Positions 15,003-35,862 of a stretch of DNA of 64,000 bases are shown piece by piece (position 1 is the first letter of the stretch; each line of letters starts with the position of its first letter). A program made the translations under genes and the position numbers. The notes beneath the pieces are model-generated. The model worked only from the letters and a program-made list of their open reading frames with translations, had not been told where the DNA came from and searched no databases. The DNA comes from Minisyncoccota bacterium (GTDB lineage Bacteria; Patescibacteriota; Minisyncoccia; Phycocordibacterales; UBA9973), in the NCBI GenBank assembly GCA_041661005.1, contig JBAZVG010000001.1:196917-260916 (forward strand), in the 5' to 3' direction.

Positions 15003-16538
15003 TTAATTTCCCTTGATTATTTTAATATCTGCGCCGATGGAATTCAATCGCTCGGCGATTTCTTCGTAACCACGATTTATCATATAAACGTTTCGTAGTA
15101 TTGAAGTGCCACTAGCTCCAAGCATTGAGATAAGTATTACCATTGATGGTCGTAAGGCCGGTGGGCAAACGACTTGAGCTCCCTTTAACGCTGTTCCGCC
15201 GTTGATATAGAGGCGATGTGGATCTGCGAGGGTAATATCTGCGCCTAGGCGGTTTAATTCAGTCAGATATATCGCGCGATTCTCATAAACCCAGTCATGG
15301 ATCATTGTTTGACCTTTGGCCTTTATGGCAATAGGCACAAAGAATGGCAGGTTGTCTATATTTATTCCGGGATAGGGATTGGAGTGTAATTTATCATAAA
15401 GAGCTTTTAGTTTGCTTGGGAAAATTTCTACATCTACTAATTTTGTTCGTCCATTAAAAGAATAATAAATTTTTGAAGCTTTGAATTTTAAATTCATTCT
15501 TTTTAGTTTTTCCAATTCTAAAGAAAGAAAGTCTATGGGGACGCGAGTGATGCTGAGTCTCGAGTCAGTGATAATTCCAGCAGAAATAAACATCATGGAT
15601 TCTATAGGGTCTTCACTGTTCCAATATTCTATATCTTTATTTATATTTGCTACGCCATGCACGGTCAGATTGGCAGTGCCGATACCTTCTATTTTTACAC
15701 CCAAAGCTTCAAGAAAAAAACAAACTTCTTGCACCATATAGTTTGCGCTGGCAAAGTTTATTTTTGTGGCGCCAGGTATAAGAGCAGAAGCCATCAAAAC
15801 ATTTTCACAGGCCGTGTCTCCAGATTCATACATTACTATTTCACTTGGTTTTAGTTTTCGTGAAGAGATTTCATAATTCTTTGCCGTAGTCTTTACTTTT
15901 ACCCCGAGTTTTTCTAGGGCGTAGATGTGGGCGGCTATTGTGCGTTTACCTAGATTGCATCCATGTGGATGGGGGAGAGAAAAGGTTGATAATTTATGAA
16001 TGAGTGGACCCATGAGCATTACGACTGAACGAGTTTTGACCGCTGACTCTATGTTTATATTTTCTAAATTAAATTTCTCTCCTGGTGTGATGGTTAAAGT
16101 ATTCTGGTTTAGCCATTTTATTGCGACCCCGATACTTTCGAGAATTTCAATGACCCGATACACTTCCTCGATTCGCGCTATGCCATGCAAGGTTGTTGTC
16201 CCCCTGTTTAAGAGCGAAGCGCAAAGAAGCCCGACCGAACCATTTTTAGAAAAATTAGTTTTGATAGTTCCACTTAATTTTTTCCCTCCATGCACTTCGA
16301 AATCGATCGAATCATTTATAGAAACTATTTGATGATCTAAAACATTGCTTATTTTTAAAAGTAATTCAGTTGTAAAATTTTGTTCGCCTTTTTCCATTCG
16401 GGGGATAGAACTTTGAGAAGTATTCAGCGCTTTAGCAAATTGCTCTTGAGTCATTCCGCGGTGTTCGCGCAATTCTTTGATAAAATAACCTATCTTTTGT
16501 TGTTCGGTCTGTACTGTTGATTTTATATTTTTTGTCAT
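15003..16538 (-). CDS. murA: UDP-N-acetylglucosamine 1-carboxyvinyltransferase (MurA) with an N-terminal HTH_XRE DNA-binding domain fusion
   Basis: N-terminal ~75 aa reads GYFIKELREHRGMTQEQFAKALNTSQSSIPRMEKGE (XRE HTH). The rest is an EPT fold with a GCNLGKR loop and ~420 aa MurA-like sequence. Confidence 0.8.
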   Translation of the reverse strand: MTKNIKSTVQTEQQKIGYFIKELREHRGMTQEQFAKALNTSQSSIPRMEKGEQNFTTELLLKISNVLDHQIVSINDSIDFEVHGGKKLSGTIKTNFSKNGSVGLLCASLLNRGTTTLHGIARIEEVYRVIEILESIGVAIKWLNQNTLTITPGEKFNLENINIESAVKTRSVVMLMGPLIHKLSTFSLPHPHGCNLGKRTIAAHIYALEKLGVKVKTTAKNYEISSRKLKPSEIVMYESGDTACENVLMASALIPGATKINFASANYMVQEVCFFLEALGVKIEGIGTANLTVHGVANINKDIEYWNSEDPIESMMFISAGIITDSRLSITRVPIDFLSLELEKLKRMNLKFKASKIYYSFNGRTKLVDVEIFPSKLKALYDKLHSNPYPGINIDNLPFFVPIAIKAKGQTMIHDWVYENRAIYLTELNRLGADITLADPHRLYINGGTALKGAQVVCPPALRPSMVILISMLGASGTSILRNVYMINRGYEEIAERLNSIGADIKIIKGN

Positions 16539-16794: not shown

Positions 16795-17814
16795 ATGAGA
16801 AAGATCCAGTCCCTTATCGTGGCAGTGGCACTCGCGTGCTTCACGGCCCTAACCTCCGCTAACGCGGCGATGTCTGTGCAGGCGTTCTTTTCACCGGGAG
16901 TGCCCACAGATTCAACCAACAACCTGTCGAGCCAGCAGAACAAAATGGCTTTTCTCGACGCTGGCAACCTCGTGGGCGGAGCCTACGAGACAAATCCGGT
17001 GGCGATGAATCTCCCGAAGGTGCTGAAGATCGGGGATGTGTTGCGTTTCCGGCCGGGCTTTCCTGGTTGGCTTGCAGTGCCGACTTCGTCGGGACCGGAT
17101 GCATATGGCGCTCGTCTCTTCTGCATGGTGAAGGTCACCAGCACGGAGGCGAATGTGAATCCACGCCGGGTTCGGGTTCGCACATGGACGCCTCTGAATG
17201 ACGGTGTCCTTTGGTCAACCAACTGGTTGGCCAGCGAGACCATCACCATGTCGTCAACCCTAACGGGCCGTAAGTATGGCCCTGATGGAGTTCGAGGTGG
17301 ATCGGATGATCAGCCGTTCAGTTCCGGAACCTCGGACCTGAACTTCAACGAACTCATCACGGTCGGTCCCAGGATATTCCTTGACGTCTTCAATCAAGAA
17401 GATTTAAGTCTTGCGCTCAACTACTGGGATGGCAAAAGGCCCATGGAGTTACACGTCGAGGTCACGGTTTACGCCGCAGACATGGTGACGGTGCTCGGAA
17501 GGAAGGAAATTGTCCTCACCGCGCGGCCGTATCTCTTGATCGACCGTGGTGGTCTCAACTCCGAGATTCGGTACGTTCGCATGGAGAGTGAACGGGCGAA
17601 AAACTACCAGCTAATGTCATCGCTGTGGCCTGGAGGCGGTTACTCTGACGTTCCAGCCGGAGGACTTCTGCATGATGGCAGTGTTTACACGAACACCAAT
17701 CTTGCCGATCGTCAGTTCTTCGGAGTCCGGGAGACGTCGGTCTCGGCAGCGGGGTTAAGGTCGGCAACGTCGGCTTCAAAACCTTCCAGTGGAGTCGAAA
17801 GCGGAAATGAGTAA
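16795..17814 (+). CDS. Secreted hypothetical protein (signal peptide), encoded in a GC-rich (~57%) block
   Basis: N-terminus MRKIQSLIVAVALACFTALTSANA. Codon usage and GC differ from the surrounding AT-rich genome. Confidence 0.6.
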   Translation: MRKIQSLIVAVALACFTALTSANAAMSVQAFFSPGVPTDSTNNLSSQQNKMAFLDAGNLVGGAYETNPVAMNLPKVLKIGDVLRFRPGFPGWLAVPTSSGPDAYGARLFCMVKVTSTEANVNPRRVRVRTWTPLNDGVLWSTNWLASETITMSSTLTGRKYGPDGVRGGSDDQPFSSGTSDLNFNELITVGPRIFLDVFNQEDLSLALNYWDGKRPMELHVEVTVYAADMVTVLGRKEIVLTARPYLLIDRGGLNSEIRYVRMESERAKNYQLMSSLWPGGGYSDVPAGGLLHDGSVYTNTNLADRQFFGVRETSVSAAGLRSATSASKPSSGVESGNE

Positions 17815-17998
17815 GATGATGAATATGTTATGGGGGCGAGCGGATATCCCAATCGCCCCAGAGTTAGCGAGATGTGTGTCTCGCCTGATGAGCTCAAAAG
17901 AGCGAAAACTCTTGACAAACAATTGACTTTATGCTAGCGTGAGTAAATTGATAATTAATTAATAGGTCGCAGGTAATTATAAAGTAATAAATAAATAT

Positions 17999-18922
17999 AT
18001 GAGCAAGACAATAAAGACTTTTTTGAAATATGGATTTGTGGCAATTGTCGCTATTTTTATAGCCTTTTTGTCGTCAGTCGCTTTTGCTATAGATGAGGTA
18101 AATGTTAATCCAGCAAGTGATTCGGAAAATGGTAATGAAAACGCAAATCCAGGAAGTGGTTCAGAAAGAGGTAGTGAGGTAAATGTTAATCCAGGAAATG
18201 GTTCAGAAAACGGTAATGAAGGTGGAAATGTGGATACAATCCCTGGCGATGTAACTCCTCCAGATGGTGGACCTACCGGAGATAGCTCTGGCAGTAGAAG
18301 TACTGGTAGTAGCAGAACAAGCACCCAGAATATTTCTGACATTAAAGTTACGCTTGTTGGTTCTTCTGTCTCTATAACTAATCTCGTTCGCGGAGGTACT
18401 TACACTATTTCTTGGGACGCATCAGTTCAAAACGCAGACACTTCTATTAGTTTAGTTTCTTCTTATGGTTCAAATATTTTAATCGGCACAAGCAAGAATG
18501 CAAACGGTGCTAATACTTTAAATTGGACTGTTCCCACATATCTAGCTCTCGGTACTTACACTTTACGCTTTACGGATTCTAGTAATCGAATGACCGACGC
18601 TTCGAACGTGTATAGGATAGTATCTCGAAGATCTTCTAACGCAGGCGCAGAAGCTCTAGGAACTGGTGGCGGAAATTTAATTGACACAGATGGAGAATCC
18701 TCAACTGTTTCGCCTGATGAAACAGAAGTTTTACCATCGGAAGATTCGCAAATTTCGGACGAGACTTCTCCCGTAGATCAGACAGCCGCAGTTGGAAATG
18801 CTTTTACAGATTTCTTGAGTAATAAGTATATTTTGTGGTTCTTTGTTCTTCTACTTATCATTGTTGGCGCTCTTTTTTTTCAAGAACGCAAAGATAGCGA
18901 TAAATTCCCTTTTAACAAGTAA
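17999..18922 (+). CDS. Cell-surface repeat protein (signal peptide, EVNVNP.(S/N).SENGNE repeats, Ser/Thr/Gly-rich, C-terminal TM anchor)
   Basis: N-terminal TM/signal, three imperfect ~20-aa repeats, C-terminal hydrophobic ILWFFVLLLIIVGALFF. Confidence 0.6.
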   Translation: MSKTIKTFLKYGFVAIVAIFIAFLSSVAFAIDEVNVNPASDSENGNENANPGSGSERGSEVNVNPGNGSENGNEGGNVDTIPGDVTPPDGGPTGDSSGSRSTGSSRTSTQNISDIKVTLVGSSVSITNLVRGGTYTISWDASVQNADTSISLVSSYGSNILIGTSKNANGANTLNWTVPTYLALGTYTLRFTDSSNRMTDASNVYRIVSRRSSNAGAEALGTGGGNLIDTDGESSTVSPDETEVLPSEDSQISDETSPVDQTAAVGNAFTDFLSNKYILWFFVLLLIIVGALFFQERKDSDKFPFNK

Positions 18923-18944
18923 TTGTTTTACTAAACATTCAAAA

Positions 18945-18980
18945 ACAGCCTCGACTAACGTCGAGGCTGTTTTTGTTTTT
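18945..18980 (+). terminator. Rho-independent terminator
   Basis: ACAGCCTCGAC-TAAC-GTCGAGGCTGT followed by TTTTGTTTTT. Confidence 0.7.
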
Positions 18981-19054
18981 GATCTATGAATGATAATTTC
19001 AAGTTTTTCTTTGGCGGCATTCAAAATAAAATTAGTTTTCATAAATTTTTTAAT

Positions 19055-19249
19055 TTATGAAGGACCAATTTTCTGAATGTTATATTTTTTTACTTTATTT
19101 ATGACAAATCCAATAATTAATCCGATTAAACTAAATATGACGACCGGAGTGATGAACAAAATAATTTTAAAACCAATCATAGAGTCAGTAAATCCTGGAA
19201 TCCAACTAAGAAATAAAACAGGAATAATCCATAGACAGAATTCAACCAC
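19055..19249 (-). CDS. Small hydrophobic protein (64 aa, 2 TM), hypothetical
   Basis: ORF only; strongly hydrophobic. Confidence 0.3.
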   Translation of the reverse strand: MVEFCLWIIPVLFLSWIPGFTDSMIGFKIILFITPVVIFSLIGLIIGFVINKVKKYNIQKIGPS

Positions 19250-19267
19250 TGCGATTGAAAGTTGTAA

Positions 19268-19450
19268 TTAATTTTCACATCCGTTTGGTCCACCAGGAGA
19301 AGTATGGCAATTAGTTATATTACTGTAAATTCCGAAAATTATTCCAATGCATAAACCAATGAGCAACCCCTTTTTAGTTATTGACATATTTTTGTTATTT
19401 AATGATAGATTTTTTGTATATTTTAAAATAATTAAAAAATCTTCTTCCAA
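19268..19450 (-). CDS. Small membrane protein (60 aa), hypothetical
   Basis: ORF only. Confidence 0.25.
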   Translation of the reverse strand: MEEDFLIILKYTKNLSLNNKNMSITKKGLLIGLCIGIIFGIYSNITNCHTSPGGPNGCEN

Positions 19451-19506
19451 TTATATTCTATATGGCAATTAATCTCAAGCTAGTGCAAAGGAAAAGAATC
19501 AAACTC

Positions 19507-20046
19507 TCATAATTTCCAGAAGTTGATAATTTTTATAAATTTTTCCACATTCTTTGAAATTCTAATTATATATTTAACTCTATTTTTCTTTATGTCCAAG
19601 ACTTTTCTTGCTTTTATTGCAAAGCCAATTTCTTGGAGCATATCCTCTATATCTCTAATTAGAGTATAACAAACTGACGTAAAATTTACCATTTTGTAGC
19701 CTCGATCACTATAGATTGATCCGTCTGTTTGGAATAATCCTCGCAAACATTCTTTTCTATAAACCTTATTTTCCTTGATCCAGCTAGGCACGCCTACCTT
19801 CTGTTTAATTTTTGAACCACCTTTAGCTCCCCATCCCAATATTTTTTCTAAATCATTTGAATAAATACATATGTCTAAGGCATTAACTCGATCTGTGATA
19901 GAAATTTTGTTTTGAGTAAAAATTATTTTTAGATTTTTAATTATATTTTCTACAATTAGAGGATACTTTTTATCACAAGTAATTCTAAGTCTAACAGCTC
20001 TTCCATTTGGATTCGACAAATTACCATCCCCGAGAGCTATGCCCAT
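19507..20046 (-). CDS. LAGLIDADG-family homing endonuclease (double-motif, free-standing)
   Basis: Two LAGLIDADG motifs: IMGIALGDGNL and LRGLFQTDGSIY. The ORF track starts it at 20127, but that extension is antisense to tRNA-Leu, so the internal ATG at 20046 is more plausible. Confidence 0.7.
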   Translation of the reverse strand: MGIALGDGNLSNPNGRAVRLRITCDKKYPLIVENIIKNLKIIFTQNKISITDRVNALDICIYSNDLEKILGWGAKGGSKIKQKVGVPSWIKENKVYRKECLRGLFQTDGSIYSDRGYKMVNFTSVCYTLIRDIEDMLQEIGFAIKARKVLDIKKNRVKYIIRISKNVEKFIKIINFWKL

Positions 20047-20086
20047 TATGTAGGCTATAGATTTTTTATTATTTATATGAGGCAAG

Positions 20087-20170
20087 TGCCGGGAGGGAGA
20101 CTCGAACTCCCACGGGGTTGCCCCCAAACGATTTTGAGTCGTTCGCGTAAACCAATTCCGCCATCCCGGC
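20087..20170 (-). tRNA. tRNA-Leu (anticodon CAA), type II with long variable arm
   Basis: Reverse complement reads GCCGGGA ... anticodon loop CUCAAAA ... variable stem GGGG-GCAA-CCCC ... T-loop TTCGAGT ... TCCCGGC-A. Confidence 0.8.
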
Positions 20171-20211
20171 TATAATTTTTATTTTACTTTACTTTATGAT
20201 AAAATACAATC

Positions 20212-21198
20212 ATGTCCAACATATATTCAAATTCAATTTTTTGGGTAGATACAGACAAAATCAAACCTAACCCCTACCAACCCAGAAGAGATTTCGATGA
20301 ATTACGGTTGCAAGATTTGGCAGATTCCATAAAACAATACGGCGTGCTCCAACCGCTGACAGTTTCTCGCGTAGAAAAAGAAAAAGAAGGAGGCGGGCTA
20401 GTGACTGAATATGAATTGATTGCCGGAGAGCGCAGATTGCGCGCGGCTATCTTGGCTCATGTTTTGCAAGTGCCTGTCATCATACGTGAGGGAGATACAG
20501 CAATTATGAAGCTGGAGCTTGCTATCATTGAAAATTTGCAACGTGAAGATTTGAACGTAGTTGATCGCGCTCGCGCCTTTTTCCGATTAGCAAGCGAATT
20601 TAAATTTACTCACAATGAAATCGCAAAAAAAATGGGACGAAGCAGGGAATATGTTTCCAATTCTTTACGTATTTTGACTTTGCCGGAAGAGATTTTAACT
20701 GGCTTAAGGGATGGCAAGATTACCGAGGGTCATACTCGGCCGATACTAATGCTTGCCGATCACCCAGAAGAACAGTTGGTTTTGTTCAAAGAAATTGTTT
20801 ACAAGAAAATCACGGTGCGTGAGGCTGAAAAATTGGCGAGAAAAATAGCTTACGATCGAGTGCGCAAGAAAGAATTCATGCCCGATCCAGAAATAATTGA
20901 GCTCGAAGAAGAATTCCAAGAAAAATTAGGCACTCGAGTTCATATAGACAGAAAAGAGTTGGGCGGGCAAATTAAAATTGATTTTTTTTCCACCGAAGAT
21001 CTGCGATCTATTTTAGATTTGATAAGCAAGTCGAGCACTGAAAAAGCCCCGAACGAAATGCTTGAGAATTATATTGCTGGTGAAGAAGCAAAAACGTCAA
21101 CACCATCGAGCGATGAAACGCCGATAGACGACAGATCAAAAGAGGAAAAAAAAGAAGATGATGCCGACCTTTACAATATTTCTAATTTTAGCGTTTAA
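20212..21198 (+). CDS. parB: Chromosome partitioning protein ParB/Spo0J
   Basis: ParB box reads ..QPRR.F....L..L..SI...G.LQP..V ... LIAGERRLRAA. Confidence 0.85.
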   Translation: MSNIYSNSIFWVDTDKIKPNPYQPRRDFDELRLQDLADSIKQYGVLQPLTVSRVEKEKEGGGLVTEYELIAGERRLRAAILAHVLQVPVIIREGDTAIMKLELAIIENLQREDLNVVDRARAFFRLASEFKFTHNEIAKKMGRSREYVSNSLRILTLPEEILTGLRDGKITEGHTRPILMLADHPEEQLVLFKEIVYKKITVREAEKLARKIAYDRVRKKEFMPDPEIIELEEEFQEKLGTRVHIDRKELGGQIKIDFFSTEDLRSILDLISKSSTEKAPNEMLENYIAGEEAKTSTPSSDETPIDDRSKEEKKEDDADLYNISNFSV

Positions 21199-21212
21199 GA
21201 AGTGCAAAATAT

Positions 21213-23465
21213 CTATATCTCAATCTTCTTTATTTTGTGGGGGTTATGCATGGGGCAAGATTTATTGGAGCAACGTTCTGGGATAGTTTTGGTGCCTTCC
21301 ATCATCAGACTGCCACATTCTTTACATATCGCGCCAGTTGGTTTTGCCTTGATCGCAAACTTGCATTTGGGATAGTTTGAACAAGAATAAAAAATACCAA
21401 ATCGTCCACGACGTTCACTGATATCTCCTGTTTTACAAAGGGGACACAACACGCCAGTTCTCTTTTTTGCTTCATCTGCTTCATCGCTTTTGATAAATTT
21501 ACATTTTGGATAACGTGAGCAAGAAATAAATGTGCCAGTGCCATCGCGTCTTTCTCTGACAACAAGTTTTCCACCACCAGATTTACCTTTTTTTTCACCG
21601 CATTCTGGACATATTTCTCCGGTTTCTGCTGGACCTTTTAATTCTGTGCCGTCGAGCATAAGGGCTCCATCACAATCAGGATATTTGGAACAAGAATAAA
21701 ATTTACCTGCGCGAGAAAGTTTTATTATCATTTCGGATCCGCATTTCGGGCATTTTATGTTTGAGGGCGCTGATCCCAAGTTTGTCGCTTTTTCCAATTT
21801 TTCTTTTGATTTTACTTCCTTTAGAAAAGGTCCGTAAAAATCTCTCAGAGTTTTTTCATATTCGCGTTCTCCTCTCGATATCTCGTCAAGCTCGTCTTCC
21901 ATTTCTGCTGTAAAACTATCTGAAATATAATTCATAAAATGTTTTTCCAAAAAATCTGAAACAACTTCACCGACATCAGTGGGGAATAATGTTTTTCCTT
22001 CTTTGTTCACATAACCTCTCTCTTCAATTGTTTTCATGATGGATGCATATGTGGACGGTCTGCCTATCCCTCTAGCTTCTAATTCTTTGACCAGTCCTGC
22101 TTCGCTGTATCTGTCGGGTGGCAGGGTGAATTTTTCTTCATTTACGAGATCAAGTAGTTTCAACTCTTCTTCTGCTTTGCACACTGGTAGTTCTACATCA
22201 TCGCCTCGAGCGTCGCTATCCACCTTGAGCCATCCAGGAAAAAGCAGACGGGAACCATTGATGGAAAAATCTGGCAAGTCCTCATGTCCTTTTATAACGG
22301 CTGAAATTTTAGTTTTCAATAATTTTGCGTCAGTCATCTGCGAGGATATGGCGCGCTCCCAGATCAATCTATACAATTTGTCTTGCTCATCAGTGCCTAC
22401 AATCATATTTGTTATGTGCGTTGGACGTATGGCCTCATGCGCTTCCTGGGCGTTTTTTGATTTTGTTTTGTAAATTCTAGCTTCAGCATATTCTTTTCCA
22501 TATTTATTTTGGATAAAAGAAATTATTTGCGTTTGCGCAGCTGCAGATAAGTTTGTGCTGTCGGTTCGCATATATGTGATATGTCCAGCCTCGTAAAGTT
22601 TCTGCGCTATTTGCATGGTGCGAGAAGGTGAATACCCGAGACGTGAACTCGCTGTTTGTTGCAATGTAGAAGTGGTAAAAGGCGCGCGGGGCGAACGTTT
22701 CTGTTCAGATTCCTTTACCCCACTAACAATCCATGTGCCGGCTTTACCCTCGGTCATTATTTTTTGTACTAATTTTTCATCTCGTGGTTCTTCTGAACAT
22801 TCTAGAGTAATTTTTTCCCCTCCTGCCTGAGGAGGGGTGCCCTTTAGGGCGGGGTGGTGGGAGGTTTCAAACAGTCCGAATATTTTCCAATATTTCTCTG
22901 GAACAAAGGCGCGGATTTCACGTTCACGTTCCATTACTATGCGAAGCGCAGGGGACTGCACGCGTCCGGCAGAAAGTCCGTATCGCACTTTTTTCCAAAT
23001 AAGTCCCGAAAGGTCATAGCCCACAAGACGGTCCAAGACTCGGCGCGCCTCTTGCGCCTTTCTTAATGCTGTGTCTATCTGGCGTGGATGTTGCAGGGCT
23101 TCTTCTACGGCTTCTTTAGTAATTTCATGAAAAGTTACTCGCTCAATGGGGGCTTTTACTTTTTTATCTTCTTTTAAAAGAGTTTCTATATGCCAAGCAA
23201 TGGCTTCTCCTTCGCGATCAGGGTCGGTCGCTAAAATTATTTCTTTCGCCTTTTCCGCCAATCCTTGCAATTCGTGCACAATTTTTTCTTTACCTTTAGA
23301 AATTTCATAATGCGGAATAAAACCTCCTTCGATATCAATTGCTATTTTATTTGATTTCGGTAAATCACGAATATGTCCGACAGATGCACGCACAGTAAAA
23401 GCGCCTTCCAAATATTTTTCAATCGTCTTTGCTTTTGATGGTGACTCAACAATTAATAATTTCAT
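21213..23465 (-). CDS. topA: DNA topoisomerase I
   Basis: TOPRIM N-terminus MKLLIVESPSKAKTI, active-site region, C-terminal C4 zinc ribbons; 750 aa. Confidence 0.9.
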   Translation of the reverse strand: MKLLIVESPSKAKTIEKYLEGAFTVRASVGHIRDLPKSNKIAIDIEGGFIPHYEISKGKEKIVHELQGLAEKAKEIILATDPDREGEAIAWHIETLLKEDKKVKAPIERVTFHEITKEAVEEALQHPRQIDTALRKAQEARRVLDRLVGYDLSGLIWKKVRYGLSAGRVQSPALRIVMEREREIRAFVPEKYWKIFGLFETSHHPALKGTPPQAGGEKITLECSEEPRDEKLVQKIMTEGKAGTWIVSGVKESEQKRSPRAPFTTSTLQQTASSRLGYSPSRTMQIAQKLYEAGHITYMRTDSTNLSAAAQTQIISFIQNKYGKEYAEARIYKTKSKNAQEAHEAIRPTHITNMIVGTDEQDKLYRLIWERAISSQMTDAKLLKTKISAVIKGHEDLPDFSINGSRLLFPGWLKVDSDARGDDVELPVCKAEEELKLLDLVNEEKFTLPPDRYSEAGLVKELEARGIGRPSTYASIMKTIEERGYVNKEGKTLFPTDVGEVVSDFLEKHFMNYISDSFTAEMEDELDEISRGEREYEKTLRDFYGPFLKEVKSKEKLEKATNLGSAPSNIKCPKCGSEMIIKLSRAGKFYSCSKYPDCDGALMLDGTELKGPAETGEICPECGEKKGKSGGGKLVVRERRDGTGTFISCSRYPKCKFIKSDEADEAKKRTGVLCPLCKTGDISERRGRFGIFYSCSNYPKCKFAIKAKPTGAICKECGSLMMEGTKTIPERCSNKSCPMHNPHKIKKIEI

Positions 23466-30766: not shown

Positions 30767-32446
30767 CACGTTTGGACTCACAGAGGCGGATGCCTCATTT
30801 GGCCCTTTCGACAGGCCAGTATTTTCAGGTTCGATTGGCTTGTTTTCGGTTTCTGTATCCGACATGGACTTTTCGAGGATGAAGAACGGTTCGCGGGCTT
30901 CAATGCTCAGCTTTTTGGCCTTCAAAGTTAGGTTCGATCCGAATGTCACCAGCATCTCCTCTTTGGTCTTCGCATCGCCGTTCGCGAACCGCTCCCGAGC
31001 GGTCGAGGCAAATTCAAACGTGTCTTCGGACAGTTTTAACTGCTGCTCAATCCGCTTCCCGGCATCCTGAAGCAACTCCTCCAAAGCGGACTTTTCTTTG
31101 AGTAGCTTCACCCTCCTCTGACCGTATTCCTCATCCGATAGCTGGCTTCCGTCTGCGTTGCTGGACGAGGTTTTCAGACCCACCAGATTGTCGATTTCCT
31201 GCAAGCACGCTCGATATGCCTTCTGCTGGGCTTCGATGATGGCGCTTTGCTCCATGCTCTCCTTCGCGTGCAATTCATGGAGGAATTTGATGCAGTAGGC
31301 TTTGAATTTCTCGGAAATATGGATGCGGCCAAGATATTCACGAATCTGCCTTTCGAGATCAAATGCACTCACACTCTTCTGCGGACAAGATGGACGTTTG
31401 CTTTTTGAACAATGGTAATAGGTGTAGTGAAGGAAGAGCGGGTTCGTCATTTCTTCGATCGATGTCTGGCAGCGCGGGCAGGCGTTTCGCTTGCGGTAGG
31501 CAAACTTGAACCGGCATTGGCCACACATGACCTGGTGCTTTTCCTCAGCGGTCACCATCCGGTCACACTCGCCACAACGGATGAGGCCGGTGAAAGCAAA
31601 TTCAAAGTGCGATTGAGGCCGCGGACTGCCGTTGCGGCCAAGCAAAGTCTGCACCCGGTCATATTCCGCTTCGGTGATCATCGGCTCGTGCTTTCCCTGA
31701 TACCACTTGTTGCTGCCGTTTGGATATTCAAACCAGCCGTAATAGAAGGGCTTGGTGAAGATCTGGTAGATGGCGCTTCGGCAAAGAGGCTTGCCACCCA
31801 TCTTGCGCGTTGGCCTCGTGCGGAAGGCCCACTCTTTGTTGGCGATTTCCAGAATTCTCGGCGGGGTGTAGAGGCCGGTCAGCATCAAATCCCACATGCG
31901 ACGGAGCAGAGGAAAACGCTCCGGATCTTTGACCAGAGTGTTTTCGCCCGTCAGCTTGTCGGTGTGGTTCAAGTAGCCTGCCGGGGCGACGCCGGGATAC
32001 CAGCCGTTTTCGGTCTTGGTCTTGAGTCCCCGTTTTACGTTTTTGCTCAGGTCGTCCACGTATTTCTGCGCCATGCCGAATTCGATATACATGAGGATGA
32101 TATTGTCATCTTCACGGGCGTAAGTCTGGGCCGGGGTCATGATCCTGATGCCATGCTGTTTGATGCCCCAGATGATGGAACCTCCGTCCACCGGATTACG
32201 CGCCAGACGATCAAGTTTCCAGCAGATGACGCCGGCAGCTTCACCACGGTAAAGGCGTTGCATCATCTGATTGAACACCGGGCGCCCCGGATCTTTTGCG
32301 GATTTCGACTCGGTCAATACTTCGACAACTTGTAAATTTAACTTGGCCGCCAACTGCTCCAATTCGCGGGTTTGGGATTCAATGGAAAGAATCTGCCGGT
32401 CTTCGGCTTCGGATGATTTGCGACAATAGATGAAGTATCCTGACAT
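30707..32446 (-). CDS. Large serine recombinase (integrase of a tRNA-Gln-associated island)
   Basis: N-terminal resolvase catalytic domain IYCRKSSEAEDRQ..SIESQ ... LDRLARN, a recombinase domain, a zinc ribbon CGECDR...CGQC...CPRC, and a coiled coil. Its 3' end overlaps the tRNA-Gln 3' half on the opposite strand. Confidence 0.8.
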   Translation of the reverse strand: MSGYFIYCRKSSEAEDRQILSIESQTRELEQLAAKLNLQVVEVLTESKSAKDPGRPVFNQMMQRLYRGEAAGVICWKLDRLARNPVDGGSIIWGIKQHGIRIMTPAQTYAREDDNIILMYIEFGMAQKYVDDLSKNVKRGLKTKTENGWYPGVAPAGYLNHTDKLTGENTLVKDPERFPLLRRMWDLMLTGLYTPPRILEIANKEWAFRTRPTRKMGGKPLCRSAIYQIFTKPFYYGWFEYPNGSNKWYQGKHEPMITEAEYDRVQTLLGRNGSPRPQSHFEFAFTGLIRCGECDRMVTAEEKHQVMCGQCRFKFAYRKRNACPRCQTSIEEMTNPLFLHYTYYHCSKSKRPSCPQKSVSAFDLERQIREYLGRIHISEKFKAYCIKFLHELHAKESMEQSAIIEAQQKAYRACLQEIDNLVGLKTSSSNADGSQLSDEEYGQRRVKLLKEKSALEELLQDAGKRIEQQLKLSEDTFEFASTARERFANGDAKTKEEMLVTFGSNLTLKAKKLSIEAREPFFILEKSMSDTETENKPIEPENTGLSKGPNEASASVSPNVLGDLDSNQNNILQRDVSYH

Positions 32447-32532
32447 GGAAATGGGTGATTAAAATAAGGGAGGCGGGCGACCTTGGAGCCTGCATCCCTA
32501 TGCTAACGTACCGGCAAAATACGTCAATGAGG

Positions 32533-32796
32533 TCACTGGCTAAGACGGTTCTCGTCGGGCTCCTTGTCTGAACCCGGCTGCTTCAGAATCCCGAAGAAGC
32601 GAAGTAGACGCACAGCGATTTCTTGGATCTCGTCGTCGCTAAGACGCTTACCGAACTCCTCTTGGTAAATGGCTCTGAACTCCTCGATAGCTTCACGACT
32701 TAGTTGTTGTGGTGTTTTCATATCGTCCACTTTACTTGCTGTTACTCTTCGGCAAAGGACGGAAGAATTGCCACATACGGCATGTCCGCATTGCAC
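32533..32796 (-). CDS. Small helical hypothetical protein upstream of the recombinase (possible directionality or regulatory factor)
   Basis: ORF only; the likely true start is an internal Met (MKTPQQLSREAIEEF...). Confidence 0.3.
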   Translation of the reverse strand: MQCGHAVCGNSSVLCRRVTASKVDDMKTPQQLSREAIEEFRAIYQEEFGKRLSDDEIQEIAVRLLRFFGILKQPGSDKEPDENRLSQ

Positions 32797-33024
32797 TTGG
32801 AACTAGAATTCGGGGCACCTCCCTTGACGAATAGCGAGTTTCGTGCTTAAATACGAAAACCTTCCACCGAGTTCAAGAAGCTCGGTGTTTAATAGGTTTG
32901 CCATTTCTGGCAAAGGTTCCCGCCTTTGGTATTTTTACCATTGAGATATGGTGGTGTCGTGGAACTCGCATTGGGTTCCTCCGCTTCCACACTGATGACT
33001 TCACTTCAACTTCCAAACTATTTG

Positions 33025-33366
33025 CTATCTAATCGAAAACGCCTGACTCTTTCTCAAGAAGAGGTCGCATTTCTGTTGGGAGCGGGAAGGCGGCGTATTG
33101 TCCACCTTGGTCGTCGCGGCGAGCGTGACCCGCGAGAGGCGGTTGCCGGCATCGTCGTAGGCGTATGACTCAGCCGAACCGTCGGAATATGCGGCGTTGG
33201 TGAGGCGGGACAGGGGGTCGTGGGAATGCTCGAAAGTGGCGCCATTTACTTGCGATATCGCAAGGATAATGCAACCGCAGGCCAAAACGTAAACAGCGGT
33301 AAACATAATACACCTCATACTAGTTATTGTTAAATACGTTAAATACGATTCGGATAACCAACCCAA
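33025..33366 (-). pseudogene. Fragment: signal peptide plus a single YD/RHS repeat (YAYDDAGNRL), likely a remnant of an RHS-family protein
   Basis: Hydrophobic N-terminus MFTAVYVLACGCIILAISQVNGA, then a YxYDxxGRL-type repeat, then an unrelated tail. Confidence 0.4.
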
Positions 33367-33471
33367 TCATTGTAATCGAAATAACTAACCACATAGGTGG
33401 AAGAAGCGGCCCATCATGACCGAAAAATAAACCACGTAAAAACGAAATTATCTGCTGGATTGTTTGCTTTT

Positions 33472-34962
33472 TCATGGAAGCTGAAAGAGATTTATATAAG
33501 CGTTCACACCCTGTTGAATTTGATCGCCTCGCAGTTGGAAAAGATTTAACGTATAGGTGTTCAAAAAAACAGCGCTATACGAAGTCAAAGCATCATCAAC
33601 AGACTGCCACGCCTCAAGCGGATTATGTAGTGCATACGTCAGGTTCTCGTCAATGTGCATAATACTTTCACCCAGAGTGCTGAAATCGACGCCCCGAGCA
33701 CGCAATTCGGCCTGACTTGATTGGAAAACGCCGTAAACAGTGGAGGCCCTTGCAGTTAATCTGAGCGTGCGACCGATACCATGAAGGTCGATAACGTTTC
33801 CCGGTGATAATCGCAGTTGTCCAATCGTAACTCGACCGTATCCCGTATCCACATACAGTTCGAGCCGCGAACCAATTTCGCGCAACAGCCATTCAATCGA
33901 TTCTCTTGGCAAATCGCCAAAATTTAATTGACCGAATATATTGCCTGAGGTTGTTCCTCCTTCCTGCGCCGACAAGCCACTTACATCAAGCCATTTCAAA
34001 GGATTGTTCAGCGCATACACATAGCGATTCAAACTCTGCCCGTCGCTGTCCTTCCCAGTAACTGGGTCTTTAGTGGCAAATCGGCCCAGTTGCGGGCTGA
34101 AATAGCGAGCGCGGGCATGATAAAGACCATTACCGTCATCCATGATACCATACCGCCCCAGATAACGGAAGGGCTGCGGAGAATCCCCCTCGGAATTCGC
34201 CACGACGCCAAACGAATCAAACGCGTAGGCGTCGGTTTCGTCTCCGTTGGTGTTGAATGAATCATTCCCACCGATGGACTGAACTTGATGCGAATACAGT
34301 TTGTTAATCAGACGTTCGCGTTCCATGAACTGCTCTGGTTGCAGAAATGGACGATCCCAGCGTAAGTAGTGTTTGAAATAAATACATCTGAGAATGGTTC
34401 GCATCTCTGACGCACTAACGAGTACACGCTGATCTGGTAAGAGCACCATTAAGTCTGCTGGATAACTTGTCTGTCCATCGTAAGTTTGAAGAACTGGATA
34501 ATGGTAAGCAAAATCCACGGTGCGAAATCCGAGTCGCTTGAAATACCCGATCAGTTTGTCGTCGGGCTCCCATTGTTGGGAACTATTCCGCCTCCGTGCT
34601 ACCTCAAACACAATGGAAAAACCAGGTGGGTAGTTCTGTGCGAGAAACTGTTCTATACTCCTAATAGCACGACTTGGCAAAAGGCCAGGCCGTTTGGAGT
34701 CGCGAATGCATAGATACTCAAAGAAGAAAAGTTGTTCCTCTATGAAAAAGCTGTACTGCAAATATCCCACAACGGTGTGGTCATTTTGAAGTGCAAAGCA
34801 TTTGAACTCATCGGCGAGAACTTCTTTGCTGTGCTCGATCCAATAGAGAATCTGGCGCTCTGGATTCTGAGCTTCCGGCAGTATGGTTTCCCGGTAGATA
34901 CTCAAAGCTGCATACAAGCGATTCTTCCCGCGATTTGTCCGGTCGATTGGCTTAAGAAACAT
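33472..34962 (-). CDS. Chimeric protein: N-terminal GNAT-like fold, RHS repeat-associated core domain, C-terminal ~170-aa variable (toxin-like) domain
   Basis: The core reads PFRYLGRYGIMDDGNGLYHARARYFSPQLGRFATKDPVTGKDSDGQSLNRYVYALNNPLKWLDVSGL, which matches the RHS core consensus (..Y.ARYYDP..GRF.S.DP ... N.Y.Y..NNP....DPSGL). The N-terminus FSIVFEVARRR..KLIGYFKRLGF is GNAT-like. Confidence 0.55.
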   Translation of the reverse strand: MFLKPIDRTNRGKNRLYAALSIYRETILPEAQNPERQILYWIEHSKEVLADEFKCFALQNDHTVVGYLQYSFFIEEQLFFFEYLCIRDSKRPGLLPSRAIRSIEQFLAQNYPPGFSIVFEVARRRNSSQQWEPDDKLIGYFKRLGFRTVDFAYHYPVLQTYDGQTSYPADLMVLLPDQRVLVSASEMRTILRCIYFKHYLRWDRPFLQPEQFMERERLINKLYSHQVQSIGGNDSFNTNGDETDAYAFDSFGVVANSEGDSPQPFRYLGRYGIMDDGNGLYHARARYFSPQLGRFATKDPVTGKDSDGQSLNRYVYALNNPLKWLDVSGLSAQEGGTTSGNIFGQLNFGDLPRESIEWLLREIGSRLELYVDTGYGRVTIGQLRLSPGNVIDLHGIGRTLRLTARASTVYGVFQSSQAELRARGVDFSTLGESIMHIDENLTYALHNPLEAWQSVDDALTSYSAVFLNTYTLNLFQLRGDQIQQGVNAYINLFQLP

Positions 34963-35761: not shown

Positions 35762-35862
35762 AGAGGAAAAGGGACGCTCATCCTTGCCGGCGTCGGCAAA
35801 TAAGAAAAAGGGCGACCCGATTGGATCGCCCTTGTGATTAGTAGTCTTCCGGCACCCAAGCG

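What the first reader, a model, noticed from the sequence alone, without database searches (positions are those of the whole stretch)
19507..20170. Free-standing double-motif LAGLIDADG homing endonuclease directly downstream of, and co-oriented with, tRNA-Leu(CAA)
The protein has two clear LAGLIDADG motifs (GIALGDGNL, LFQTDGSIY) on the same strand, 40 nt from the tRNA-Leu 3' end. No intron or intein context is visible: the tRNA reads as contiguous. Bacterial LAGLIDADG genes are usually intron- or intein-borne, so a free-standing copy riding a tRNA transcript is notable. It may mark a degenerate group I intron or a homing-derived domesticated nuclease. The ORF as drawn by the six-frame track runs antisense into the tRNA, so the true start is likely the internal Met.
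Basis: partly seen in the sequence, partly recalled or inferred. Interest (0 to 1): 0.6.

Follow-up and report, generated by a model that had tools for sequence, protein, structure and literature searches.

The report
Homing-endonuclease gene riding on tRNA-Leu(CAA)
A small DNA-cutting "selfish" gene sits immediately after a leucine tRNA gene in this ultra-small (Patescibacteria) bacterium, and the same gene occupies the same spot in many related lineages but is missing from the closest relatives, so it looks like a mobile element specialised for this one tRNA gene.

Summary
tRNA-Leu(CAA) lies at 20086-20170 (-), followed on the same strand by an intact two-motif LAGLIDADG ORF. No intron or intein surrounds it.

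Two details are wrong. The ORF overlaps the tRNA in sense, not antisense. The likely start is TTG at 20085, 1 nt after the discriminator base, giving 192 aa, not the internal ATG at 20046.

The protein belongs to a Patescibacteria family of at least 1187 proteins. In 71 of 81 loci this family sits directly 3' of tRNA-Leu(CAA). The start codon is usually 1-10 nt from the tRNA end.

The AlphaFold model (pLDDT 94) is I-DmoI-like, and both catalytic Asp are invariant. dN/dS is about 0.1.

The gene is absent from the window's closest relatives, where murA abuts the same tRNA. Some HEG, tRNA and ParB histories disagree, which points to horizontal transfer.

In the window and about 10 other loci, a decayed second copy of the tRNA 3' end follows the stop codon.

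Best reading: a mobile free-standing homing endonuclease cassette dedicated to the tRNA-Leu(CAA) 3' region and co-transcribed with the tRNA. The cleavage site is unknown. I rate it a new variant of a known kind.

The parts
20086..20170 (-). tRNA-Leu(CAA), contiguous. The gene encodes the discriminator A plus one C, not a full CCA.
   Evidence: ARAGORN. Rfam tRNA 57.8 bits, full model 1-71.
19507..20085 (-). LAGLIDADG homing endonuclease CDS as re-drawn here. TTG start at 20085-20083, TGA stop at 19509-19507, 192 aa.
   Evidence: The TTG directly after ...GGCAC is shared with L001 and L002, whose codon at the window's ATG position is GTG or ACT. The closest homologue, P0002, is 192 aa and starts MPHVNNKKSISYITG. 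The AlphaFold helix 2-20 includes these residues. The I-DmoI profile alignment starts at residue 4.
20044..20046 (-). Internal ATG used by the public annotation (179 aa, P0001). Probably not the true start.
   Evidence: P0001 begins MGIALGDG, which would remove 13 residues of the first LAGLIDADG helix.
20017..20043 (-). LAGLIDADG motif 1, GIALGDGNL. The catalytic Asp20 codon is 20026-20028.
   Evidence: G19, D20 and G21 are invariant in 35 homologues. The motif sits at the C-terminal end of helix 2-20.
19711..19737 (-). LAGLIDADG motif 2, LFQTDGSIY, containing the catalytic Asp121.
   Evidence: D121 and G122 are invariant. The motif sits at the end of helix 107-121. Pfam LAGLIDADG_3 covers the C-terminal half.
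20086..20113 (-). Repeat copy A: the last 28 nt of the functional tRNA (TGGGAGTTCGAGTCTCCCTCCCGGCAC region).
   Evidence: Read from the sequence. Compared with copy B.
19483..19510 (-). Repeat copy B: a decayed duplicate of a tRNA-Leu 3' end (ATGAGAGTTTGATTCTTTTCCTTTGCAC). It overlaps the HEG stop codon.
   Evidence: 19 of 24 nt match the tRNA 3' end of the HEG-less relatives L081, L082 and L084-L086, and 15 of 24 match the window's own tRNA. Across 127,954 positions of the window, only one other place reaches 19 of 24 against the panel, and it falls within the coordinates of the tRNA-Trp gene.
20191..20218 (-). Weak promoter-like site (TGGACA-16-TAAAGT) upstream of the tRNA. A candidate promoter for a tRNA-HEG transcript.
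   Evidence: Consensus scan, 9 of 12 matches. The number of sites found is not above that in shuffles. Inferred only.
19450..19478 (-). Strong promoter-like site (TTGAGA-17-TATAAT) just after copy B. It would drive the two small downstream ORFs.
   Evidence: 11 of 12 consensus matches.
19055..19450 (-). Two small membrane-like ORFs (60 and 64 aa) with no family match. They belong to the variable DNA between the tRNA and murA.
18940..18975 (.). Perfect 16-bp hairpin. A bidirectional terminator closing the tRNA-HEG-small ORF unit.
20212..21198 (+). parB, divergent from the tRNA. It is the conserved left-hand neighbour and was used to anchor relatives.
   Evidence: NCBIfam parB_part 157.7 bits. 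Synteny.
15003..16538 (-). HTH-fused murA. In HEG-less relatives this gene follows the tRNA within a few nt (L087, L088) or about 60 nt (L083, L086). Here it lies 3.55 kb away.
   Evidence: Pfam EPSP_synthase plus HTH_3. Colinearity with L088 and L083. Start positions.

Best explanation
This is a free-standing, single-chain (two-motif) LAGLIDADG homing endonuclease gene of the I-DmoI / LAGLIDADG_3 type. It belongs to a Patescibacteria-specific family whose home is the 3' region of the tRNA-Leu(CAA) gene.

Shown:
- The gene lies directly after the tRNA on the same strand, with no room for a promoter or Shine-Dalgarno sequence. The likely TTG start is 1 nt after the discriminator base.
- Both catalytic Asp are invariant, the fold is that of an active enzyme, and the protein is under purifying selection.
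- The gene is present or absent among close relatives at exactly this site.
- In several lineages, including the window, it is bracketed by the tRNA 3' end and a second, decaying copy of a tRNA 3' end.

Inferred mechanism:
- The tRNA promoter makes a tRNA-HEG co-transcript.
- 3' processing of the tRNA releases an essentially leaderless mRNA that is translated at a low level.
- The enzyme cuts HEG-less tRNA-Leu(CAA) alleles in or at the T-arm-to-3'-flank region.
- Repair from an occupied allele copies the HEG in, while a contiguous tRNA is kept. The displaced old 3' end is left behind as copy B.
- The flanking repeats also allow clean loss, which would give the patchy distribution.

The exact cleavage site is not known. 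Nor is it known how occupied alleles escape cutting.
For: Identity and fold:
- Pfam LAGLIDADG_3 scores 45.1 bits.
- The AlphaFold2 model has pLDDT 94.3 and pTM 0.90, with two alpha-beta-beta-alpha-beta-beta-alpha halves.
- The best PDB fold match is I-DmoI (E 3.6e-9, TM about 0.7), followed by PI-SceI, I-Tsp061I and PI-PfuI.
- D20 and D121 are invariant in 35 homologues.

Linkage to the tRNA:
- At least 1187 homologues exist. All source names shown for the top hits are Patescibacteria/CPR groups.
- In 71 of 81 loci, tRNA-Leu(CAA) is directly upstream and co-oriented.
- Three further loci keep the linkage in other orientations: L045, L057 and L074.

Start codon position (67 loci with an identifiable start):
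- The leader between discriminator and start codon has a mode of 1 nt (20 loci).
- It is <=3 nt in 31 loci and <=10 nt in 51 loci.

Purifying selection:
- dN/dS is 0.07-0.17 in 10 close pairs.

Presence/absence at the site:
- The closest ParB relatives (74-83% identity, L081-L088) have the same ParB-tRNA arrangement but no HEG.
- Only 2 of 39 ParB-anchored loci that contain a tRNA-Leu(CAA) gene carry this family.
- L002 (HEG+) and L088 (HEG-) are colinear and have 100% identical tRNAs. They differ by a 1.09-kb insert placed exactly between the tRNA end and the murA start.
- DNA similarity between the window and HEG-less relatives stops at the tRNA 3' end.

Horizontal transfer:
- The L016 and L060 HEGs are 83% identical in protein (78% nucleotide identity over the aligned tRNA+HEG stretch), yet their ParB is 41% and their tRNAs 73% identical.
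- Vertical pairs with 80-85% HEG identity have about 80% ParB and 98-99% tRNA identity.

Flanking repeats:
- Within 120 nt after the stop codon, 10 of 80 loci match a tRNA 3'-end panel at >=16 of 20 nt. One of these (L074) is a complete tRNA gene.
- The same threshold is reached in 1 of 412 control windows and 0 of 400 shuffles.
- The window's copy B matches the sister allele at 19 of 24 nt.

Other mobilising functions:
- Homologues of the L037 tyrosine recombinase occur in only 2 of 161 sequences searched.
- No relatives were found in viral contigs.
Against: - No cleavage site is known, and nothing was tested biochemically.
- The L002 (HEG+) and L088 (HEG-) tRNAs are identical. A target lying wholly inside the tRNA would therefore be cut in occupied genomes too. 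No systematic HEG+ versus HEG- tRNA difference was found beyond lineage sampling.
- Within clades the HEG tree follows gene context and tRNA type. The nearest HEG partner is among the top three ParB neighbours in 30 of 55 loci. Much of the inheritance is therefore vertical.
- Only about 12-15% of HEG+ loci show a recognisable copy B.
- Duplicated tRNA 3' ends also occur in HEG-less loci around short non-HEG inserts. The repeats are therefore not proof that the HEG made them.
- Other genes (murA in L087 and L088, a second gene in L089) also start 2-8 nt after this tRNA. The abutting start codon is a property of the locus, not a special adaptation of the HEG.
- The candidate tRNA promoter is weak.
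Confidence: 0.68

Rival explanations
1. It is a domesticated LAGLIDADG protein. On this view it is a host-beneficial nuclease or DNA-binding factor, kept by selection and functionally tied to tRNA-Leu(CAA). Possible roles include regulating or maintaining that locus, or acting on another conserved site.
For: - The sequence is very strongly conserved, with 50-85% identity across many candidate phyla and near-invariant beta-hairpin segments.
- dN/dS is about 0.1.
- The HEG tree is largely congruent with gene context within clades.
- Nearly all detected copies are intact.
Against: - The gene is absent from the window's closest relatives and from 36 of 39 ParB-anchored loci that contain a tRNA-Leu(CAA) gene.
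- The HEG, tRNA and ParB histories are discordant in several loci.
- Degenerate copies exist (L003, L047, L070).
- Both catalytic Asp are kept and there is no added domain, unlike WhiA.
- Detection used the conserved peptides themselves, which biases the sample towards intact copies.
Confidence: 0.12
2. The HEG is a passenger in a classical tRNA-gene integration hot spot. On this view a tyrosine recombinase acting in trans, or another element, created the tRNA-3'-end direct repeats and moved the cassette. The nuclease would be only cargo.
For: - Direct repeats running from the T-loop or anticodon loop to the tRNA 3' end are the signature of integrase-mediated integration into tRNA genes (established knowledge).
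- Such repeats also flank short non-HEG inserts in HEG-less loci (L082, L111, L122, L129, L137).
- L037 has a phage-integrase gene next to its HEG.
- L047 has a 2.8-kb ABC-transporter insert between the tRNA and the HEG, flanked by a 9-nt repeat.
- In the window, 3.55 kb of variable DNA lies between the tRNA and murA.
Against: - Homologues of the L037 integrase occur in only 2 of 161 sequences, and none in the 64-kb window.
- In the window and in L019, L035, L039 and L077, the segment between the repeats holds only the HEG ORF.
- In the transferred pair L016/L060, similarity outside the tRNA covers just the ORF and ends at its stop codon.
- The start codon abuts the tRNA in lineages whose acceptor stems differ.
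Confidence: 0.1
3. It is the remnant of an intron-encoded endonuclease. On this view the gene once sat in a group I intron in the anticodon loop of tRNA-Leu(CAA), and the ribozyme has since decayed.
For: - Some copy B fragments reach back to the anticodon loop (L070, L138). That is where bacterial tRNA introns insert (PMC13011429).
- Patescibacteria are rich in group I introns.
Against: - No Rfam intron hit was found at E<=10.
- The tRNA is contiguous.
- Only 1 nt separates the discriminator base from the start codon, and no nucleotide separates the stop codon from copy B, so there is no room for P3-P9.
- The Patescibacteria tRNA-intron survey reports HNH-type HEGs, not LAGLIDADG, in Patescibacteria tRNA introns.
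Confidence: 0.04
4. It is an inactive relic. On this view the gene is fixed and no longer cuts anything, and persists only because it is short and harmless.
For: - No target site could be defined.
- The public annotation starts the protein inside the first helix.
Against: - dN/dS is about 0.1.
- All family-invariant residues, including D20 and D121, are present in the window copy.
- The model is confident and complete.
Confidence: 0.05

Closest known systems
I-DmoI (archaeal 23S rRNA intron-encoded monomeric LAGLIDADG endonuclease) and related LAGLIDADG_3 / intein-type endonuclease domains (PI-SceI, PI-PfuI, I-Tsp061I)
   Same: It has the same compact single-chain, two-motif fold of about 190 aa, with an acidic residue at the end of each LAGLIDADG helix. 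I-DmoI is the best Foldseek match (TM about 0.7). The profile also finds I-DmoI by sequence (E 0.0095).
   Different: Identity is only 18-20%. The gene is not inside an intron or intein. The host is bacterial (Patescibacteria). It lies next to a tRNA gene, not inside an rRNA gene.
Phage T4 SegB, a free-standing GIY-YIG homing endonuclease in the tRNA gene cluster (PMC2330249, found)
   Same: Both are stand-alone endonuclease genes embedded among tRNA genes. According to that paper's title and abstract, SegB promotes preferred inheritance of the surrounding tRNA region. This is 'intronless homing' with co-conversion of flanking tRNA DNA. The discordant tRNA histories here fit a similar effect.
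   Different: The nuclease family is different (LAGLIDADG against GIY-YIG). The setting is a cellular chromosome, not a phage. One specific tRNA is involved. The start codon abuts the tRNA. A duplicated tRNA 3' end is present.
Organellar free-standing HEGs that insert into the 3' part of a host gene and bring a replacement 3' end, such as Allomyces atp6 and Ophiostoma rps3
   Same: The logic would be the same. The element keeps the host gene intact by supplying a new 3' end, and the displaced original 3' end decays downstream. This matches copies A and B here.
   Different: Those host genes encode proteins in mitochondria. Here the host is a bacterial tRNA gene, whose 3' end must still pair with its 5' strand. 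The mechanism has not been demonstrated here.
LAGLIDADG endonucleases in rRNA insertion sequences of CPR bacteria, e.g. I-ShaI (PMC11270868)
   Same: The host phylum and the enzyme superfamily are the same. That paper also argues for target-specific homing.
   Different: Those enzymes are mostly single-domain homodimers (LAGLIDADG_1 and _2) inside rRNA genes or introns. That paper reports LAGLIDADG_3 only in 16S insertions, and its main text does not contain the word tRNA.
Integrase-driven genomic islands in tRNA genes
   Same: Both show direct repeats of the tRNA 3' segment on both sides of the inserted DNA. The tRNA gene is kept intact.
   Different: The element has no integrase. In the clearest cases the insert is a single 579-nt endonuclease ORF.
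Mitochondrial 'tRNA punctuation' and leaderless mRNAs (established knowledge)
   Same: An mRNA whose 5' end would be created by excising the tRNA that precedes it, with the start codon at or next to the new 5' end.
   Different: This is inferred from sequence only. The same layout is seen for murA in HEG-less relatives, so it is a trait of the locus or lineage.

Membership tests
LAGLIDADG homing endonuclease, single-chain two-motif | Two LAGLIDADG helices, each ending in a conserved acidic residue | tested here: met
   GIALGD20GNL and LFQTD121GSIY are present. D20 and D121 are invariant in 35 sequences. Each lies at the C-terminal end of a helix (2-20 and 107-121).
LAGLIDADG homing endonuclease, single-chain two-motif | Pseudo-dimeric alpha-beta-beta-alpha-beta-beta-alpha x2 fold | tested here: met
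   The AlphaFold2 model has pLDDT 94.3. Foldseek against the PDB gives I-DmoI at E 3.6e-9 and TM 0.69-0.72.
LAGLIDADG homing endonuclease, single-chain two-motif | Curated family model above threshold | tested here: met
   Pfam PF14528 LAGLIDADG_3 scores 45.1 bits against a cut-off of 22.5, on the C-terminal half only.
LAGLIDADG homing endonuclease, single-chain two-motif | Site-specific cleavage of a 20-24 bp target leaving 4-nt 3' overhangs | not testable with these tools
   This needs purified protein and substrates. The target is unknown.
Mobile (homing) genetic element | Presence/absence polymorphism at one precise site among close relatives | tested here: met
   L081-L088 lack the gene at the same ParB-tRNA site. 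L002 and L088 are colinear, with the insert exactly at the tRNA end.
Mobile (homing) genetic element | Phylogeny discordant with that of the host | tested here: inconclusive
   There are clear outliers (L016-L060: HEG 83%, ParB 41%, tRNA 73%). However, 30 of 55 loci are consistent with vertical descent, and the HEG tree follows gene context.
Group I intron-encoded HEG | ORF embedded in a ribozyme core (P3-P9) that interrupts a host gene | tested here: not met
   No Rfam intron match was found at E<=10 in 18000-22000. The tRNA is contiguous. Only 1 nt separates the discriminator from the start codon and none separates the stop codon from copy B.
Intein-associated endonuclease | Endonuclease domain inserted in a Hint/splicing domain, in frame within a host protein | tested here: not met
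   The 192-aa ORF consists of the endonuclease fold only. The NCBIfam intein-protein hits cover only the endonuclease part and are far below their cut-offs.
WhiA-type domesticated LAGLIDADG regulator | Degenerate LAGLIDADG domains without catalytic acids, plus a C-terminal HTH domain | tested here: not met
   The catalytic Asp are invariant and there is no HTH domain. TIGR00647 scores 16 bits against a cut-off of 44.1. The Pfam WhiA-LAGLIDADG hit is weaker than the LAGLIDADG_3 hit.
Integrase-mobilised tRNA-gene island | Direct repeats of the tRNA 3' segment at both ends of the insert | tested here: met
   The window's copy B (19483-19510) matches at 19 of 24 nt. 10 of 80 loci reach >=16 of 20 nt, one of them (L074) a complete tRNA gene, against 1 of 412 control windows.
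Integrase-mobilised tRNA-gene island | Tyrosine or serine recombinase gene inside the element | tested here: not met
   A tblastn search with the L037 integrase hits only L037 and L069 among 161 sequences, and nothing in the window. Very distant recombinases could have been missed.
Free-standing phage-type HEG (Seg/Mob, intronless homing) | Stand-alone ORF beside its target gene; GIY-YIG or HNH catalytic domain | tested here: not met
   The stand-alone position next to the tRNA is met. The catalytic family is LAGLIDADG, not GIY-YIG or HNH. It works like these elements but is not a member.

The most novel reading that the evidence does not exclude
The element may be a self-contained 'intron-free' homing cassette for a tRNA gene. 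On this reading:
- It invades tRNA-Leu(CAA) in the T-arm-to-3'-end region while supplying or preserving a working 3' end.
- The old 3' end is left behind as a decaying copy.
- Expression comes only from the tRNA's promoter, and tRNA 3' processing creates its leaderless mRNA.
- The cassette drives horizontal replacement of tRNA-Leu(CAA) alleles across Patescibacteria.
- tRNA-Leu(CAA) would be a tolerant target because tRNA-Leu(UAA) can also read UUG.
Probability: 0.3. Interest if true: 0.75.

Novelty: new variant of a known kind. Interest (0 to 1): 0.6.

Why it matters
If this reading is right, several things follow.

- **A different strategy for a bacterial homing endonuclease.** These genes normally rely on an intron or intein to make their insertion harmless. 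This family would instead live at the end of a tRNA gene, use the tRNA for transcription and for making its mRNA 5' end, and keep the tRNA intact through a duplicated 3' segment.
- **A testable target.** The predicted target, tRNA-Leu(CAA) alleles of Patescibacteria, can be tested directly. The enzyme is a compact 192-aa I-DmoI-like scaffold, which is of interest for meganuclease engineering.
- **Unusual tRNA evolution explained.** It could explain why tRNA-Leu(CAA) sequences in these genomes diverge or are replaced unusually fast.
- **Variable DNA downstream.** It could also explain why the DNA downstream of this tRNA is so variable.
- **An annotation problem.** Gene callers start this family inconsistently, from read-through into the tRNA to a start inside the first helix.

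Tried and rejected
- **PDB sequence searches.** They gave only spurious BamA POTRA matches to the motif-2 region, plus a weak I-DmoI hit. I used the fold search instead.
- **Search for a repeat of the tRNA end with <=3 mismatches, and the repeat finder.** Both missed copy B because it has decayed. I found it only by reading the sequence after the stop codons.
- **nhmmer with a tRNA profile.** It was too insensitive for 20-nt fragments. I replaced it with a panel-match count with controls.
- **Looking for immunity-conferring differences between HEG+ and HEG- tRNAs.** The significant columns lie in the D-arm and reflect which lineages were sampled. L002 and L088 are identical. Inspecting T-loop position 59 by eye gave no consistent rule.
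- **Homology between the promoter after copy B and the murA promoter of HEG-less relatives.** The alignment is too weak to claim.
- **Pairwise ParB-versus-HEG identity as a test of vertical descent.** HEG identity saturates at about 53%. Nearest-neighbour ranks were more informative.
- **Viral contigs.** No relatives were found, so there is no evidence for a phage vector.
- **Rfam on the short inserts of HEG-less loci.** No family matched.
- **One script timed out** and was redone from multiple alignments.
- **Literature.** Five successful searches and four papers read found no description of a tRNA-Leu(CAA)-flanking LAGLIDADG family. The library is partial, so prior description cannot be excluded.
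Full report
**1. What is in the window**

ARAGORN and Rfam both find a contiguous tRNA-Leu(CAA) at 20086/20087-20170 on the minus strand (57.8 bits against a gathering score of 29). On the same strand a six-frame ORF runs 20127->19507.

The ORF contains GIALGDGNL and LFQTDGSIY and matches Pfam LAGLIDADG_3 (45.1 bits, cut-off 22.5). No intron model matches 18000-22000 even at E<=10, and the window holds no rRNA. The 1-kb stretch containing the ORF has 28% G+C, against roughly 36-41% in most of the window.

**2. The start codon**

The public annotation (P0001, 179 aa, 'LAGLIDADG family homing endonuclease [Candidatus Paceibacterota]', on an 813-kb contig) starts at ATG 20046. The homologues, however, conserve NKKxxAYI upstream of that Met. 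Four lines of evidence favour a TTG directly after the tRNA:

- The sequence reads ...CCCGGCAC|TTG CCT CAT ATA AAT AAT AAA AAA TCT ATA GCC TAC ATA ATG. The two closest loci (L001, L002) share the TTG in the same place but have GTG or ACT where the window has ATG.
- The closest protein, P0002 (85% identity), is 192 aa and begins MPHVNNKKSISYITG.
- The AlphaFold2 model of the 192-aa version is confident (pLDDT 94.3, pTM 0.90), and its first helix spans residues 2-20.
- A family profile aligns to I-DmoI from residue 4.

I therefore place the start at TTG 20085-20083, 1 nt after the discriminator base.

**3. What the protein is**

The model has two alpha-beta-beta-alpha-beta-beta-alpha halves. Its best solved-structure match is I-DmoI (E 3.6e-9, TM about 0.7, 18-20% identity), followed by PI-SceI, I-Tsp061I and PI-PfuI. 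Asp20 and Asp121 end the two LAGLIDADG helices and are invariant in 35 homologues. There is no Hint domain and no HTH domain, and WhiA models score below threshold. In ten close pairs dN/dS is 0.07-0.17, although dS is saturated, so these values are rough. The protein has the features of an active enzyme under purifying selection.

**4. The tRNA linkage is a family rule**

The family has at least 1187 members at E<=1e-3 in the 90%-clustered database. All source names shown for the top hits are Patescibacteria/CPR groups. A profile search of 50%-cluster representatives finds 45 at E<=1e-30 and 1058 at E<=1e-10. The latter include a broader set of longer relatives.

I examined 80 genome loci plus the window:

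- In 71, tRNA-Leu(CAA) lies directly upstream and co-oriented.
- Five loci are cut by contig ends.
- L045 (convergent), L057 (divergent) and L074 (HEG immediately 5' of the tRNA) keep the linkage in other arrangements.

A start codon could be identified in 67 of these loci. The leader between discriminator and start codon has a mode of 1 nt (20 loci). It is <=3 nt in 31 loci and <=10 nt in 51 loci. The start is ATG in 50, TTG in 15 and GTG in 2. That leaves no room for a promoter or a Shine-Dalgarno sequence.

From this I infer co-transcription with the tRNA, and an almost leaderless mRNA once the tRNA 3' end is processed. This is inference and not shown. One caveat applies: in HEG-less relatives murA (L087, L088) and another gene (L089) also start 2-8 nt after this tRNA. 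The layout is therefore a property of the locus that the HEG has taken over.

**5. It is not a core gene**

I anchored a metagenome search on the neighbouring parB, which is independent of the HEG and of the tRNA sequence.

- The window's closest relatives (ParB 74-83% identical, L081-L088) have the same ParB-tRNA-Leu(CAA) arrangement but no HEG.
- Of the 39 loci that contain a tRNA-Leu(CAA) gene, only L133 and L136 carry this family.
- L104 carries a different, 238-aa two-motif LAGLIDADG ORF in the same slot.
- DNA similarity between the window and the HEG-less relatives stops exactly at the tRNA 3' end.
- L002 (HEG+) and L088 (HEG-) are colinear on both sides and have 100% identical tRNAs. 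They differ by 1.09 kb (the HEG plus a 156-aa ORF) inserted between the tRNA end and the murA start codon.
- In the window, 3.55 kb separates the tRNA from HTH-murA (15003-16538). This stretch holds the HEG, two small ORFs, a terminator and two opposite-strand ORFs without family matches.

**6. Vertical or horizontal inheritance?**

Within clades the HEG tree follows gene context and tRNA acceptor type. The nearest HEG partner is among the three nearest ParB partners in 30 of 55 loci. Much of the inheritance is therefore vertical.

There are also clear exceptions. The L016 and L060 HEGs are 83% identical in protein, with 78% nucleotide identity over the aligned tRNA+HEG stretch. Outside the tRNA the similarity is confined to the ORF and ends at its stop codon. 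Yet ParB in these two loci is 41% identical and the tRNAs 73% identical. Pairs with 80-85% HEG identity that look vertical have about 80% ParB and 98-99% tRNA identity.

For L060 the nearest neighbours by ParB, tRNA and HEG are three different loci. The tRNA itself also behaves oddly. The window and L001/L002 share 85% ParB identity but only 82-85% tRNA identity. This fits repeated gene conversion or transfer at this locus.

**7. A duplicated tRNA 3' end**

Reading the sequence after the stop codons showed partial second copies of a tRNA-Leu 3' end. They are often followed by AAAT and a terminator. Examples are L035, L039, L043, L060, L065, L070, L019, L077, L011 and L133.

Within 120 nt after the stop codon, 10 of 80 loci match a panel of tRNA 3' ends at >=16 of 20 nt. 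One of the ten (L074) is a complete tRNA gene. The same threshold is reached in 1 of 412 control windows and 0 of 400 shuffles.

In the window, 19510-19483 reads ATGAGAGTTTGATTCTTTTCCTTTGCAC and overlaps the TGA stop codon. Its last 24 nt match the tRNA end of the HEG-less relatives L081, L082 and L084-L086 at 19 of 24 positions. They match the window's own tRNA at 15 of 24 positions, and most mismatches are C->T. Across both strands of the window only one other position reaches 19 of 24, and it falls within the coordinates of the tRNA-Trp gene (alignment).

In several loci copy B belongs to a different acceptor type from the resident tRNA (L039, L060, L065). In the clearest cases the HEG ORF is thus the only content between two copies of the tRNA 3' end.

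**8. Caveat on the repeats**

Duplicated tRNA 3' ends are not restricted to HEG+ alleles. Five to eight of 36 HEG-less loci have a second copy 90-360 nt downstream, which is 20 of 20 in L111, L122 and L137. These copies flank short inserts that contain inverted copies of the tRNA end and share a terminal motif. No Rfam family matches the inserts.

They may be footprints of lost cassettes, another small element, or faulty break repair. I could not decide between these. Homologues of the one integrase seen next to a HEG (L037) occur in only 2 of 161 sequences, and none in the window. An integrase acting in cis is therefore not the usual driver. No relative was found in viral contigs.

**9. Most likely mechanism (confidence 0.68)**

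The gene is a mobile, free-standing LAGLIDADG homing endonuclease cassette dedicated to the tRNA-Leu(CAA) 3' region.

Shown:
- its position and the family-wide linkage to the tRNA;
- the conserved catalytic residues and purifying selection;
- presence/absence at one precise site;
- some horizontal transfer;
- flanking tRNA-end repeats in a minority of loci, including the window.

Inferred:
- transcription from the tRNA promoter (only a weak candidate at 20218-20191);
- a leaderless mRNA produced by tRNA 3' processing;
- cleavage of empty alleles in the T-arm-to-3'-flank region, followed by copying of the cassette by repair. This would leave a contiguous tRNA and a displaced old 3' end;
- loss of the cassette by recombination between the repeats.

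Unresolved:
- The target and the basis of self-immunity are unknown. Identical tRNAs in L002 and L088 mean the site cannot lie wholly inside the tRNA, unless occupied genomes are protected in some other way.

**10. Rival explanations**

- A domesticated host nuclease (0.12). Strong conservation favours it. Absence from the closest relatives and discordant histories count against it.
- A passenger in an integrase hot spot (0.10). The repeats in HEG-less loci favour it. The scarcity of integrases and the ORF-only inserts count against it.
- An intron remnant (0.04). There is no room for a ribozyme and no Rfam hit.
- An inactive relic (0.05). dN/dS of about 0.1 counts against it.

**11. Comparison with what is known**

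The enzyme is a member of the LAGLIDADG superfamily, closest to I-DmoI and the intein-type endonuclease domains. In lifestyle it resembles phage T4 SegB, a free-standing GIY-YIG endonuclease in a tRNA cluster that biases inheritance of the tRNA region (PMC2330249). It also resembles organellar free-standing HEGs that carry a replacement 3' end for the gene they invade. That second comparison rests on my own recollection and was not checked here.

The CPR literature I could read describes LAGLIDADG genes in rRNA insertions (PMC11270868) and group I introns in tRNA anticodon loops, with HNH-type HEGs in Patescibacteria (PMC13011429). Neither mentions this tRNA-Leu(CAA)-flanking family. I therefore rate it a new variant of a known kind, with interest 0.6. 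The protein type is ordinary and already annotated. The dedicated tRNA-end architecture, its family-wide conservation and its dynamics appear to be undescribed, and they are directly testable.

Noticed in passing
L104:3119-3835 (-), next to tRNA-Leu(CAA) 3872-3955: A different, 238-aa two-motif LAGLIDADG ORF (GLLVTDGNL / GHLDGDGSI) occupies the same slot after tRNA-Leu(CAA) in another lineage. It scores Pfam LAGLIDADG_3 24 bits and only E 4.5e-4 against this family's profile.
   Followed up: partly
L082, L111, L122, L129, L137 (downstream of tRNA-Leu(CAA)); also L134, L138: HEG-less loci carry a second copy of the tRNA's last 20-22 nt (19-20 of 20 matching) 90-360 nt downstream. In L111 and L122 the short inserts contain inverted copies of the tRNA end (in L111 also of the terminator). 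L111, L122 and L137 share the motif GGTACTGAAnnnGTARRnT just before the repeat. No Rfam match. The origin is unexplained.
   Followed up: partly
L006:37-70, L037:3115-3148, L047:3915-3948: In three unrelated HEG lineages the HEG is preceded not by the tRNA but by a conserved 34-nt promoter-like element (CGATTTTGAAAATAGGTGCGAGCTTGGTAAAATA) followed by (A/G)AGACAC. In L047 a 2.8-kb ABC-transporter insert flanked by the 9-nt repeat CACCAGAAT separates the tRNA from the HEG. In L037 a phage-integrase-family gene (2072-2890) lies just upstream.
   Followed up: partly
L087, L088, L089 (3' flank of tRNA-Leu(CAA)): In HEG-less relatives, murA (L087, L088) and another gene (L089) start only 2-8 nt after the tRNA 3' end. 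This suggests that mRNAs punctuated by tRNA processing, with almost no leader, are a general feature of this locus or lineage.
   Followed up: partly
window 15003-16538 (-): MurA (EPSP_synthase fold) carries an N-terminal XRE-type HTH domain (511 aa). ORFs of 503-504 aa beginning with a similar N-terminal sequence follow the tRNA in L083 and L086.
   Followed up: no
window 16795-18922 (+): Two ORFs (339 and 307 aa) with no Pfam match lie in the 3.55-kb variable block between the tRNA and murA. One sits in a 52% G+C stretch, against roughly 36-41% in most of the window. They look like acquired DNA.
   Followed up: no
L001-L080 and the window (tRNA-Leu(CAA) genes): tRNA-Leu(CAA) sequences diverge or are replaced unusually fast relative to the flanking proteins. 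The window and L001/L002 have 85% ParB but only 82-85% tRNA identity. L060 and L019 have 93% tRNA but only 53% ParB identity.
   Followed up: partly
L034:4584-5013 (-); L029:4886-5048 (-): Just downstream of the HEG stop, ARAGORN calls four tandem 'tRNA-Ser(ACT)' genes with an 89-nt period, plus a tRNA-Thr. L029 has one such copy. ACT is an odd anticodon, so this may be a tRNA-like repeat array.
   Followed up: no
window 19711-19790 region (protein residues ~98-150): The motif-2 region gives reproducible but spurious sequence matches to BamA POTRA domains in the PDB (E down to 3e-4 with the family profile). This is a possible trap for annotation.
   Followed up: no
window 31001-38000: A 7-kb block has clearly higher G+C (0.44-0.54) than the rest of the window. 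It contains no rRNA or other Rfam family at gathering thresholds.
   Followed up: no
P0003-P0021 and others (homologue N-termini): Gene callers start this family inconsistently. Some ORFs read through the tRNA T-arm (WEFESP..., GSNPT...), while others start inside the first LAGLIDADG helix (MGIALGDG, MALGDG).
   Followed up: yes
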